Of a stretch of 64,000 nt of DNA, positions 9,742-53,594 are shown in pieces (the stretch's first letter is position 1; each line of letters opens with the position of its first letter). The stretch is from the NCBI RefSeq assembly GCF_054482525.1, contig NZ_CM137006.1; one strand, written 5' to 3'. The notes under the pieces were generated by a model. The model saw only the letters and a list, made by a program, of their open reading frames with translations. It did no database searches and was not told where the DNA came from. The position numbers and the translations under genes were made by a program.

Positions 9742-11430
9742 ATGGCACAAGTCATTAATACCAACAGCCTCTCGCTGATCACTCAAAATAATATCAACAA
9801 GAACCAGTCTGCGCTGTCGAGTTCTATCGAGCGTCTGTCTTCTGGCTTGCGTATTAACAGCGCGAAGGATGACGCCGCAGGTCAGGCGATTGCTAACCGT
9901 TTTACTTCTAACATTAAAGGCCTGACTCAGGCTGCACGTAACGCCAACGACGGTATTTCTGTTGCACAGACCACTGAAGGCGCGCTGTCCGAAATCAACA
10001 ACAACTTACAGCGTGTGCGTGAACTGACCGTTCAGGCAACCACCGGTACCAACTCCCAGTCTGACCTGGACTCTATCCAGGACGAAATTAAATCCCGTCT
10101 GGACGAAATTGATCGCGTATCCGGTCAGACCCAGTTCAACGGCGTGAACGTGCTGGCAAAAGACGGTTCCATGAAAATTCAGGTTGGCGCGAACGATGGC
10201 CAGACCATCACTATCGACCTGAAGAAGATTGACTCTTCTACCTTGAACCTGACAGGTTTTAACGTTAACGGTTCTGGTTCTGTGGCGAATACTGCAGCAA
10301 CTAAAGCTGATTTAACCGCTGCTCAACTCTCTGCACCGGGTGCAGCAGACGCAAATGGTACAGTTACTTATACTGTCAGTGCTGGTTATAAAGAATCCAC
10401 TGCTGCAGATGTTATTGCTAGCATCAAAGACGGCAGTGCTCCGACTTCTGCAATTACTGCAACCATTAATAATGGCTTCGGTGATTCCAGTGCGCTGACT
10501 TCCAATGACTATACTTATGACCCAGCAAAAGGCGACTTCACTTACGACGTAGCTTCAAGCGCCAATAATACTGCTGCCCAGGTTCAGTCCTTCCTGACGC
10601 CGAAAGCAGGTGATACCGCAAATCTGAAAGTAACCGTTGGTACGACATCGGTTGATGTCGTTCTGGCCAGTGATGGTAAGATTACAGCAAAAGATGGTTC
10701 TGCATTATATATCGACAGTACAGGTAACCTGACTCAGAACAGTGCTGGCTTGACCTCTGCTAAACTGGCTACTCTGACTGGCCTTCAGGGCTCTGGTGTT
10801 GCTTCAACCATCACTACTGAAGATGGCACTAATATTGATATTGCTGCTAACGGTAATATTGGTCTGACCGGTGTTCGTATCAGTGCTGATTCTCTGCAGT
10901 CAGCGACTAAATCTACGGGCTTTACTGTTGGTACTGGCGCTACAGGTCTGACCGTAGGTACTGATGGTAAAGTGACTATCGGCGGGACTACTGCTCAGTC
11001 CTACACCAGCAAAGATGGTTCCCTGACTACTGATAACACCACTAAACTGTATCTGCAGAAAGATGGCTCTGTAACCAACGGTTCAGGTAAAGCGGTCTAT
11101 GTAGAAGCGGATGGTGATTTCACTACCGACGCTGCAACCAAAGCCGCAACCACCACCGATCCGCTGAAAGCCCTGGATGAGGCAATCAGCCAGATCGATA
11201 AGTTCCGTTCATCCCTGGGTGCTATCCAGAACCGTCTGGATTCCGCGGTCACCAACCTGAACAACACCACTACCAACCTGTCTGAAGCGCAGTCCCGTAT
11301 TCAGGACGCCGACTATGCGACCGAAGTGTCCAACATGTCGAAAGCGCAGATCATTCAGCAGGCCGGTAACTCCGTGCTGGCAAAAGCCAACCAGGTACCG
11401 CAACAGGTTCTGTCTCTGCTGCAGGGCTAA
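9742..11430 (+). CDS. fliC: Flagellin (H antigen), 562 aa, with non-K-12 central variable domain
   Basis: Conserved N-terminus MAQVINTNSLSLITQNNINKNQSALSSSIERLSSGLRINSAKDDAAGQAIANRF and C-terminus ...QVPQQVLSLLQG; central region Thr/Ser/Gly/Ala-rich. Confidence 0.95.
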   Translation: MAQVINTNSLSLITQNNINKNQSALSSSIERLSSGLRINSAKDDAAGQAIANRFTSNIKGLTQAARNANDGISVAQTTEGALSEINNNLQRVRELTVQATTGTNSQSDLDSIQDEIKSRLDEIDRVSGQTQFNGVNVLAKDGSMKIQVGANDGQTITIDLKKIDSSTLNLTGFNVNGSGSVANTAATKADLTAAQLSAPGAADANGTVTYTVSAGYKESTAADVIASIKDGSAPTSAITATINNGFGDSSALTSNDYTYDPAKGDFTYDVASSANNTAAQVQSFLTPKAGDTANLKVTVGTTSVDVVLASDGKITAKDGSALYIDSTGNLTQNSAGLTSAKLATLTGLQGSGVASTITTEDGTNIDIAANGNIGLTGVRISADSLQSATKSTGFTVGTGATGLTVGTDGKVTIGGTTAQSYTSKDGSLTTDNTTKLYLQKDGSVTNGSGKAVYVEADGDFTTDAATKAATTTDPLKALDEAISQIDKFRSSLGAIQNRLDSAVTNLNNTTTNLSEAQSRIQDADYATEVSNMSKAQIIQQAGNSVLAKANQVPQQVLSLLQG

Positions 11431-11473
11431 TCGTCCTAACCTGATTAACTGAGACTGATGGCAACGCCAAATT

Positions 11474-11573
<100 letters not shown>

Positions 11574-11603
11574 ACATGAAGCGTAATTTGTCAGCAACGT
11601 GAT

Positions 11604-11627
11604 CCCCCGCCACCGGCGGGGTTTTTT
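11604..11627 (+). terminator. Rho-independent terminator downstream of fliC
   Basis: cccccgccaccggcgggg hairpin followed by tttttt. Confidence 0.8.
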
Positions 11628-11698
11628 CTGTCCGCAATTTACCGGTAACCCCCAAATAACCCCTCATTTCACCCACTAATCGTCCGATTAAAAACCCT

Positions 11699-11725
11699 GC
11701 AGAAACGGATAATCATGCCGATAAC
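11699..11725 (+). promoter_or_regulatory. Putative sigma28-dependent promoter element for fliA (autoregulatory)
   Basis: Exact GCCGATAA -10 element at 11718..11725, ~25 nt upstream of fliA start; -35 match weak. Confidence 0.5.
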
Positions 11726-11749
11726 TCATATAACGCAGGGCTGTTTATC

Positions 11750-52757: not shown

Positions 52758-53513
<756 letters not shown>

Positions 53514-53556
53514 TTTTTACCGTTGCATCATGTCGCCCAATATGATGCTTGCTCGT

Positions 53557-53594
53557 ACCAGGCCCCTGCAATTTCAACAGGGGCCTTTTTTTAT
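53557..53594 (+). terminator. Rho-independent terminator after cutC
   Basis: accaggcccctgcaatttcaacaggggcctttttttat. Confidence 0.8.

What the first reader, a model, noticed from the sequence alone, without database searches (positions are those of the whole stretch)
10267..11152. Flagellin with a strain-specific central hypervariable domain (562 aa, not the K-12 type)
The N- and C-terminal D0/D1 regions are canonical, but the central roughly 300 residues (Thr/Ser/Gly/Ala-rich, with TVTYTVSAGYKESTAADVIASIKDGSAPTSA and repeated TVGT/GTTS motifs) differ in length and sequence from remembered K-12 H48 flagellin (498 aa). This region determines H serotype and is a target of immune and phage selection, so it marks the strain as non-K-12.
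Basis: partly seen in the sequence, partly recalled or inferred. Interest (0 to 1): 0.3.

Follow-up and report, generated by a model that had tools for sequence, protein, structure and literature searches.

The report
Known H15 flagellin variable region
This is the variable middle part of an ordinary E. coli flagellin gene of the long-known H15 serotype, identical to an already annotated protein in public genomes, so it is a correct but routine observation.

Summary
ORF 9742..11430 (+) encodes a 562-aa flagellin between fliD and fliA, and 10267-11152 is its hypervariable region (HVR, residues 176-470). K-12 FliC is 498 aa. The two proteins are 94-95% identical in the terminal parts and 22% identical in the HVR.

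The allele is known. The first 25 kb of the window is 100% identical to the E. coli PCN033 chromosome. The protein is RefSeq WP_000079748.1, which is also annotated in an O7:H15 strain. The HVR DNA is 100% identical in O166:H15 strains. It differs by 4 nt (1 aa) from strain 2022H047, whose outbreak isolates agglutinated with H15 antiserum. The HVR is serotype-specific, not strain-specific: 50 of 5426 complete genomes carry it.

Further results:
- The H15-specific core is roughly residues 181-420. The 3' end of the HVR is 90-100% nt-identical to H20-type alleles.
- HVR GC3 is 0.35, against 0.59 and 0.71 in the terminal parts.
- Against 2022H047 the HVR differs by 0.45%, while the conserved ends differ by 1.9% and 4.7%. 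This fits cassette-like recombination.
- The HVR is homologous to EPEC H6 flagellin. A confident AlphaFold model matches only sheath-forming flagellins (H6, H7, Azotobacter). The D4 dimer motif GNLTxN is conserved.

Verdict: already known, low interest.

The parts
9742..11430 (+). fliC, H15 flagellin, 562 aa plus stop (RefSeq WP_000079748.1)
   Evidence: ORF. Pfam Flagellin_N/FliC/Flagellin_C. Annotated CDS in PCN033 and in the O7:H15 strain ST70 with the same protein accession.
9742..10266 (+). Conserved N-terminal D0/D1 part (residues 1-175)
   Evidence: 94-100% aa identity to nine other E. coli flagellins, including K-12. Helical in the model. GC3 0.59.
10267..11152 (+). Hypervariable region (residues 176-470), the finding itself; predicted outer domains D2-D3-D4
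   Evidence: 22% identity to K-12 and 57-65% to H20, H28, H31 and I2-type alleles. 100% nt identity in O7:H15 and O166:H15 genomes. GC3 0.35. The HVR-only model (pLDDT 90) matches the H6, H7 and Azotobacter outer domains.
10282..11001 (+). H15-specific core of the HVR (residues ~181-420)
   Evidence: Nucleotide identity to the nearest other alleles falls to 0.40-0.85 in this stretch. The stretches on either side are 0.90-1.00 identical to H20-type alleles.
10657..10749 (+). Most conserved HVR segment, VLASDGKITAKDGSALYIDSTGNLTQNSAGL (residues 306-336), containing N329 and N333, which correspond to the D4 dimer-interface asparagines of H7
   Evidence: Invariant columns V306, G312, L322, G328, L330, T331, G336 in the 21-sequence alignment. 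The motif is aligned to H6 LYMDATGNLTKNNAG. The interface is described in PMC8931119.
11002..11152 (+). 3' end of the HVR shared with H20-type alleles (mosaic segment)
   Evidence: 90-100% nt identity to ATCC 8739, MIN6 (H20) and JNE151685. Megablast partial hits of 95.5-96% over query 733-886 in 56 genomes.
11153..11430 (+). Conserved C-terminal D1/D0 part (residues 471-562) and stop codon
   Evidence: 95-98% aa identity to the other alleles. Pfam Flagellin_C. GC3 0.71.
9639..9665 (+). Sigma-28 (FliA) type promoter, TAAAGGTT-N11-GACGATAA, upstream of fliC
   Evidence: Read directly from the sequence. The match to the sigma-28 consensus TAAAGTTT-N11-GCCGATAA is from my own knowledge and was not tested.
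11431..11749 (+). fliC 3' UTR and fliC-fliA intergenic region (fliX sRNA region in K-12), with terminator hairpin 11605-11621
   Evidence: 98% identical to the K-12 region in which fliX is annotated. Terminator-like hairpin followed by a T run.

Best explanation
The region is the hypervariable central part of fliC. The gene encodes the filament subunit (flagellin) of the peritrichous flagellum, in its known H15 antigenic form. The conserved N- and C-terminal parts form the D0/D1 coiled-coil core of the filament. Residues about 176-470 fold into surface-exposed outer domains that carry the H15 epitopes. The window comes from, or is indistinguishable from, porcine ExPEC strain PCN033 (O11, phylogroup D), which would therefore be O11:H15. 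By inference, the H15 outer region has the three-domain D2-D3-D4 architecture of the outer-domain-sheath flagellins H6 and H7, and probably dimerises through the conserved D4 GNLTxN site. The allele spreads between lineages by homologous recombination within and around fliC, so the HVR behaves as a cassette. The identity, serotype assignment, conservation pattern and composition break are shown. The fold class, the sheath formation and the recombination history are inferred.
For: Locus and gene. The ORF lies between fliD and fliA, as in K-12, and has the flagellin Pfam domains.

Identity. Window 1-25000 is 100% identical to PCN033. The protein accession WP_000079748.1 is shared with the O7:H15 strain ST70.

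Serotype. The HVR DNA is 100% identical in three O166:H15 genomes and one O7:H15 genome. Strain 2022H047 differs by 4 nt and 1 aa (P261S) in the HVR. It was chosen to represent 41 outbreak isolates that typed Hg15 by PCR and agglutinated with SSI H15 antiserum (PMC12175500).

Not K-12. K-12 FliC is 498 aa, with 22% identity in the HVR.

Expression. PCN033 is flagellated and motile by electron microscopy and swarming assay (PMC4578781).

Fold.
- The HVR alone hits EPEC H6 flagellin in the PDB (E=1.3e-16) across all 293 aligned residues.
- The HVR-only AlphaFold model has pLDDT 90.1 and pTM 0.78.
- It matches only 9N59, 7SN4 and 7SN7 at E<=1e-3, with a TM-score of 0.64 to H6.
- These are sheath-forming flagellins with D2, D3 and D4 domains (PMC8931119).
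- The D4 interface motif is the most conserved HVR segment.

Mosaicism.
- HVR GC3 is 0.353, against 0.593 expected from the codon preferences of the terminal parts.
- Against 2022H047 the HVR differs by 0.45%, while the N and C parts differ by 1.9% and 4.7%.
- The 3' HVR segment is 90-100% identical to H20-type alleles.
Against: - I could not align the window to the H15 type-strain sequence (E39a, AY249999.1, cited in PMC4753304), because it is not in the collections. The serotype call rests on named and serotyped strains, not on the reference.
- PCN033's own H antigen is not reported; the paper gives only O11. PCN033 also carries a Flag-2 lateral flagellar cluster, so the observed flagella are not proven to be FliC filaments.
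- Sheath formation is inferred from a monomer model and a sequence motif. Global superposition of the full-length model on H6 and H7 is poor (TM-score 0.33-0.38), as expected for flexible multidomain chains. No filament structure of H15 exists.
- Low GC3 in the HVR is shared by all the alleles examined (mid-region GC 0.43-0.48). It could reflect relaxed or different codon selection rather than foreign origin.
Confidence: 0.95

Rival explanations
1. The allele is a serologically distinct, unnamed H type that merely resembles H15. An isoform whose few substitutions change the antigen would be mistyped by sequence.
For: Isoform variation exists within the H15 form. One group of 24 genomes is 98.4% identical, with 8 amino-acid changes in the HVR. 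A Logan assembly holds an HVR only 81% identical (P0001). Two H15 field strains behaved differently from the H15 reference strain in a PCR assay (PMC4753304).
Against: The window's HVR differs by one residue from strain 2022H047. That strain was picked to represent outbreak isolates that all agglutinated with H15 antiserum. The HVR is identical at the DNA level to strains named O166:H15 and O7:H15.
Confidence: 0.03
2. The gene is a silent or secondary flagellin, and the strain's H antigen is specified elsewhere, for example by a flk, fll or flm-type locus or by the Flag-2 lateral system.
For: Some E. coli H antigens are encoded outside fliC (own knowledge, and the non-fliC flagellin clusters in PMC7018530). 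PCN033 carries a Flag-2 cluster.
Against: The ORF is intact and sits at the canonical fliC locus. It has a sigma-28-type promoter, a conserved 3' UTR and a terminator. In the window, fliA, fliD, fliS, fliT, flhDC, the mot and che genes and flhBAE are annotated as full-length CDSs without pseudogene flags. The strain is motile. Only this 64-kb window was examined for a second flagellin; it holds no other one.
Confidence: 0.02

Closest known systems
E. coli H15 flagellin (fliC-H15; type strain E39a, GenBank AY249999.1; RefSeq WP_000079748.1)
   Same: The protein is identical to WP_000079748.1 as annotated in PCN033 and in the O7:H15 strain ST70. The HVR DNA is identical in O166:H15 strains and one residue different from strain 2022H047 of the H15-antiserum-positive O45:H15 outbreak.
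   Different: Nothing detectable. The type-strain sequence itself could not be retrieved for a direct alignment.
EPEC O127:H6 flagellin (PDB 7SN7/7SQJ) and EHEC O157:H7 flagellin (PDB 7SN4): outer-domain-sheath flagellins
   Same: The alignment is full-length and includes the HVR (E=1.3e-16 for the HVR alone). The predicted outer-domain fold matches (TM-score 0.64 to H6, 0.54 to H7). The D4 dimer motif is conserved: H15 LYIDSTGNLTQNSAG against H6 LYMDATGNLTKNNAG.
   Different: Structure-based identity in the outer domains is only about 25-30%, so this is a different antigen. Whether H15 forms dimers as H7 does, tetramers with a seam as H6 does, or no sheath at all is untested.
E. coli K-12 H48 flagellin (b1923, 498 aa; PDB 8CXM core)
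   Same: Same locus and same neighbours. The D0/D1 parts are 94-95% identical and the fliC-fliA intergenic region is 98% identical.
   Different: The K-12 HVR is 64 residues shorter and 22% identical, which means no meaningful alignment.
E. coli H20-type, H28, H31 and I2-type flagellins
   Same: The HVRs are alignable throughout at 57-65% aa identity. The H20-type alleles share a near-identical 3' HVR segment and N-terminal part with H15.
   Different: They are 555-580 aa long. Residues about 181-420 have diverged to 40-85% nt identity in 60-nt windows. They are distinct H antigens.

Membership tests
Bacterial flagellin (FliC/FljB family) | N-terminal and C-terminal helical flagellin domains (Pfam PF00669, PF00700) | tested here: met
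   PF00669 E=4.6e-46 (residues 5-140) and PF00700 E=4.8e-32 (475-560), both far above the gathering cut-offs.
Bacterial flagellin (FliC/FljB family) | Position at the fliC locus, divergent from fliDST and upstream of fliAZ | tested here: met
   The gene order fliT-fliS-fliD <- -> fliC-fliA-fliZ-tcyJ is the same as in K-12.
Bacterial flagellin (FliC/FljB family) | Assembles into a functional filament | not testable with these tools
   Indirect only: PCN033 is flagellated and motile (PMC4578781).
E. coli H15 HVR form | HVR sequence near-identical to that of strains carrying the H15 antigen | tested here: met
   100% nt identity to O7:H15 and O166:H15 genomes. There are 4 nt and 1 aa differences from strain 2022H047, which represents outbreak isolates that agglutinated with H15 antiserum.
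E. coli H15 HVR form | Match to the H15 type-strain fliC (E39a, AY249999.1) | not tested
   The reference sequence is not in the searchable collections. Only its accession was found.
E. coli H15 HVR form | Agglutination of this strain with H15 antiserum | not testable with these tools
   The PCN033 paper reports only serogroup O11.
Outer-domain-sheath (ODS) flagellins (H1/H6/H7, Achromobacter, Azotobacter) | Three outer domains (D2, D3, D4) with the H6/H7 fold, unlike Salmonella D2/D3 | tested here: met
   The HVR-only AF2 model (pLDDT 90.1) has PDB matches at E<=1e-3 only to 9N59, 7SN4 and 7SN7, with TM-scores of 0.54-0.64. No Salmonella flagellin is among the significant hits. This rests on a prediction, not a solved structure.
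Outer-domain-sheath (ODS) flagellins (H1/H6/H7, Achromobacter, Azotobacter) | Conserved D4 dimer-interface sequence with two asparagines (H7 N319, N323) | tested here: met
   H15 has TGNLTQN with N329 and N333. G328, L330 and T331 are invariant and N329 is at least 90% conserved across 21 related flagellins. The interface is defined in PMC8931119. I did not align H7 residue by residue; the correspondence is made through H6.
Outer-domain-sheath (ODS) flagellins (H1/H6/H7, Achromobacter, Azotobacter) | Outer domains dimerise in the filament to form a sheath | not testable with these tools
   Needs cryo-EM or negative-stain imaging of H15 filaments.

The most novel reading that the evidence does not exclude
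H15 filaments carry an outer-domain sheath like those of H6 and H7, built through the conserved D4 GNLTxN interface. If so, sheath formation would be a property of a whole group of related E. coli H types (H15, H20, H28, H31 and others) and of Kluyvera and Atlantibacter flagellins, not only of the three studied so far, with effects on tumbling and on motility in mucus. The symmetry (dimer, tetramer or seam) could differ from both solved cases.
Probability: 0.6. Interest if true: 0.3.

Novelty: already known. Interest (0 to 1): 0.08.

Why it matters
The finding assigns the window's strain the in-silico H type H15, which makes PCN033 O11:H15, and confirms that it is not K-12. This is useful for typing and nothing more. 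H-antigen hypervariability, its role in serotyping and immune or phage selection, and recombination at fliC are textbook material (for example PMC7018530). The only mildly forward-looking point is the prediction that H15 belongs to the sheath-forming flagellin class, which could be checked by electron microscopy.

Tried and rejected
- Wang et al. 2003 (PMC154406), wanted for the H15 reference length and grouping, is not held.
- The first two Python runs failed because all loci are stored in a single FASTA file.
- The word-indexed protein search with the HVR returned mostly partial or odd proteins. It did not return the exact protein, because only 8000 candidates were scored. It was used only to show that related HVRs exist in Kluyvera, Atlantibacter, Shigella and Enterobacter, and to deepen the alignment.
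- The full-length AF2 model had a poor D0/D1 core (pLDDT 45-75) and low global TM-scores to H6 and H7 (0.33-0.38). I re-predicted the HVR alone.
- A long internal duplication in the HVR was tested and is only marginal (2 of 100 shuffles reach the score). I do not claim it.
- Rfam has no family hit in the fliC region at gathering threshold. The fliX sRNA region was therefore compared directly with K-12.
- The sigma-70 promoter scan found nothing meaningful, as expected for a sigma-28-dependent gene.
- I considered whether low GC3 proves foreign origin and rejected that as proof, because all the E. coli alleles examined share the lower mid-region GC.

Full report
**Observation**

The window has an intact ORF at 9742..11430 on the + strand that encodes 562 aa. 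It lies between fliD-fliS-fliT (minus strand) and fliA-fliZ-tcyJ-dcyD (plus strand). This is the K-12 arrangement in reverse orientation. Pfam finds Flagellin_N (5-140, E=4.6e-46), the enterobacterial FliC middle domain (349-466, E=2.8e-34) and Flagellin_C (475-560, E=4.8e-32).

The quoted peptide is present, and the region is 54% Thr, Ala, Gly and Ser. BLASTP of the two proteins gives 56% identity overall. By region, identity is 94% in residues 1-175, 22% in 176-470 and 95% in 471-562.

There are minor corrections. TVGT occurs three times, GTTS once, and the most over-represented short motif is KDGS, five times against a shuffle mean of 0.02. A longer internal repeat is only marginal.

**What it is**

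Window 1-25000 is 100% identical over its full length to the chromosome of E. coli PCN033, NZ_CP006632.1. There the gene is annotated as 'FliC/FljB family flagellin', WP_000079748.1. The same accession is annotated in E. coli O7:H15 strain ST70.

Megablast of the 886-nt HVR against 5426 complete E. coli genomes gave these results:
- 50 genomes carry it at full length.
- 26 of them are at least 99% identical, including three strains named O166:H15 and one named O7:H15.
- 24 are 98.4% identical.
- 56 further genomes match at 95.5-96% only over the last ~150 nt, and one more has a weak 80% hit over the last 100 nt.

The experimental anchor is strain 2022H047, whose HVR differs from the window by 4 nt and one residue, P261S. 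It is one of seven strains sequenced to represent the 41 isolates of the O45:H15 outbreak. All 41 typed Hg15 by H-genotyping PCR and agglutinated with H15 antiserum (PMC12175500). The allele is therefore H15.

The published description of PCN033 gives only serogroup O11. It also shows that the strain is flagellated and motile (PMC4578781), so the strain is O11:H15 by sequence. I could not retrieve the H15 type-strain sequence (E39a, AY249999.1; accession seen in PMC4753304) for a direct alignment.

**Relatives of the variable region**

A sensitive blastn of the HVR finds related but clearly different HVRs in 287 genomes. I extracted representatives and aligned them:
- ATCC 8739 and MIN6 (named H20), 572-573 aa
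- JNE151685, 576 aa
- strain I2, 579 aa
- O145:H28 RM12581, 580 aa
- strain 536, 555 aa (H31 from my own knowledge; the record names no serotype)

Their HVRs are 57-65% identical in amino acids to H15, against 22% for K-12 H48. H15 therefore belongs to a group of alignable HVR forms, which agrees with the clustering described by Hu and Reeves (PMC7018530).

In 60-nt windows, the N-terminal part up to residue about 180 is 92-100% identical to the H20-type alleles. Residues 421-480 (window 11002-11181) are 90-100% identical to them. Residues 181-420 are only 40-75% identical to them, and 40-85% to any of the other alleles. The truly H15-specific core is thus about 10282-11001.

GC is 0.497, 0.477 and 0.562 in the N part, HVR and C part. 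The contrast lies at third codon positions, where GC3 is 0.589, 0.353 and 0.707. If the HVR used the codon preferences of the terminal parts for its own amino acids, its GC3 would be 0.593. The shift is therefore a real codon-usage difference (ACT over ACC, AAT over AAC, GAT over GAC) and not an effect of amino-acid composition. All the other alleles examined also have a lower mid-region GC (0.43-0.48). This is a general property of E. coli fliC and not something special to H15.

Against 2022H047, the HVR differs by 0.45%, while the conserved N and C parts of the same gene differ by 1.9% and 4.7%. Against the 98.4% group, the eight non-synonymous changes in the HVR outnumber the five synonymous ones, whereas the N part has four synonymous changes and no non-synonymous ones. 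These patterns fit exchange of the HVR as a cassette between lineages, with breakpoints in or beyond the conserved ends, and diversifying change within the form. That is the established picture, and I did not run a formal recombination test.

**How it most likely works**

The following rests on established knowledge of flagellin. The terminal parts form the D0/D1 coiled-coil core of the filament, and their sequence is nearly invariant here, including LQRVRELTVQ in D1. The centre is displayed on the filament surface and carries the H epitopes.

New here is the likely fold class of the H15 centre. Searched alone against PDB sequences, the HVR matches only the EPEC O127:H6 flagellin, over all 293 aligned residues (E=1.3e-16). 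The full protein's best PDB matches are H6 (7SQJ, 7SN7) and H7 (7SN4).

A full-length AlphaFold model had confident outer domains but a poor core, and low global TM-scores. I therefore modelled residues 172-472 alone, which gave pLDDT 90.1 and pTM 0.78. Foldseek against the PDB then gave only four chains, from three entries, at E<=1e-3:
- Azotobacter vinelandii 9N59, TM-score 0.58
- EHEC H7 7SN4, two chains, TM-score 0.54
- EPEC H6 7SN7, TM-score 0.64, rmsd 5.9 Å, 30% identity

No Salmonella flagellin was significant. The E. coli and Achromobacter structures define the 'outer-domain sheath' flagellins. These have three outer domains, D2-D4, whose folds are unrelated to Salmonella D2/D3, and they dimerise through a conserved D4 site. 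Mutating N319 and N323 at that site in H7 disrupts the sheath and reduces motility (PMC8931119).

In H15 the corresponding segment is DGKITAKDGSALYIDSTGNLTQNSAG, with N329 and N333. It is the best-conserved stretch of the whole HVR across 21 related flagellins from E. coli, Kluyvera, Atlantibacter and metagenomes. I infer, with moderate confidence, that H15 filaments are sheathed. This has not been shown.

**Expression signals**

- A sigma-28-type promoter, TAAAGGTT-N11-GACGATAA, lies at 9639-9665. It was read, and the consensus is from my own knowledge.
- The 319-nt fliC-fliA intergenic region is 98% identical to that of K-12, where the fliX sRNA is annotated.
- It ends in a GC-rich hairpin with a T run at 11605-11621.

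**Comparison with what is known, and verdict**

The protein is an already catalogued RefSeq entry of a serotype defined decades ago. The phenomenon, conserved ends and a hypervariable centre that defines the H antigen, is textbook. 'Strain-specific' should read 'serotype-specific', because 0.9% of complete E. coli genomes, across several O groups, share this HVR. The finding is correct and ordinary. Novelty is 'already known' and interest is low. The only forward-looking element is the untested prediction that H15, and probably its H20, H28 and H31 relatives, belong to the sheath-forming class.

Noticed in passing
window 668-808 (-) and 992-2131 (+): Between fliE and yedL there is an integrase fragment, annotated as a pseudogene. 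Next to it is an intact 379-aa protein with DUF5503 (E=8e-52) plus a weak leucine-rich repeat hit. From memory, K-12 has a pseudogene (yedN) at this position.
   Followed up: partly
window 53285-53592 (+) and 39949-40026 (-): Rfam finds the MicL sRNA (368 bits, full length), lying within the 3' part of cutC. It also finds the C0465 RNA (91 bits).
   Followed up: no
window 11431-11749: The fliC 3' UTR and fliC-fliA spacer is 98% identical to K-12, where the 195-nt fliX sRNA is annotated. The sRNA region stays conserved even though the adjacent coding HVR is completely replaced.
   Followed up: partly
P0001 (Logan assembly, partial protein of 372 aa): This flagellin fragment has an HVR only 81% identical to H15 over 95% of the query. 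It is closer than any other named H type examined, and it is absent from the 5426 complete genomes. It may be a diverged H15-like form.
   Followed up: no
P0003, P0012, P0013, P0021: HVRs alignable over their full length with H15 occur in Kluyvera cryocrescens (57% identity) and Atlantibacter hermannii (36-39%). This HVR family, with its conserved GNLT(Q/K)N segment, therefore extends beyond Escherichia.
   Followed up: partly
window 33787-34567 (between uspC and flhD): PCN033's annotation lists no feature, and so no insertion sequence, in the 781-bp flhDC upstream spacer. This differs from the IS-carrying spacer that I recall for motile K-12 MG1655 stocks. The rest of the window is core flagellar and chemotaxis DNA: flhDC, motAB, cheAW, tar, tap, cheRBYZ and flhBAE.
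   Followed up: no
window 9742-11430 compared with L010 (2022H047) and L009 (EC21Z-144): Within fliC, the 'conserved' C-terminal 278 nt is the most divergent part between H15 strains (3.6-4.7%). The HVR is the least divergent part in one comparison (0.45%). This is the reverse of the between-serotype pattern and points to recombination breakpoints near the HVR/C-terminal junction.
   Followed up: partly
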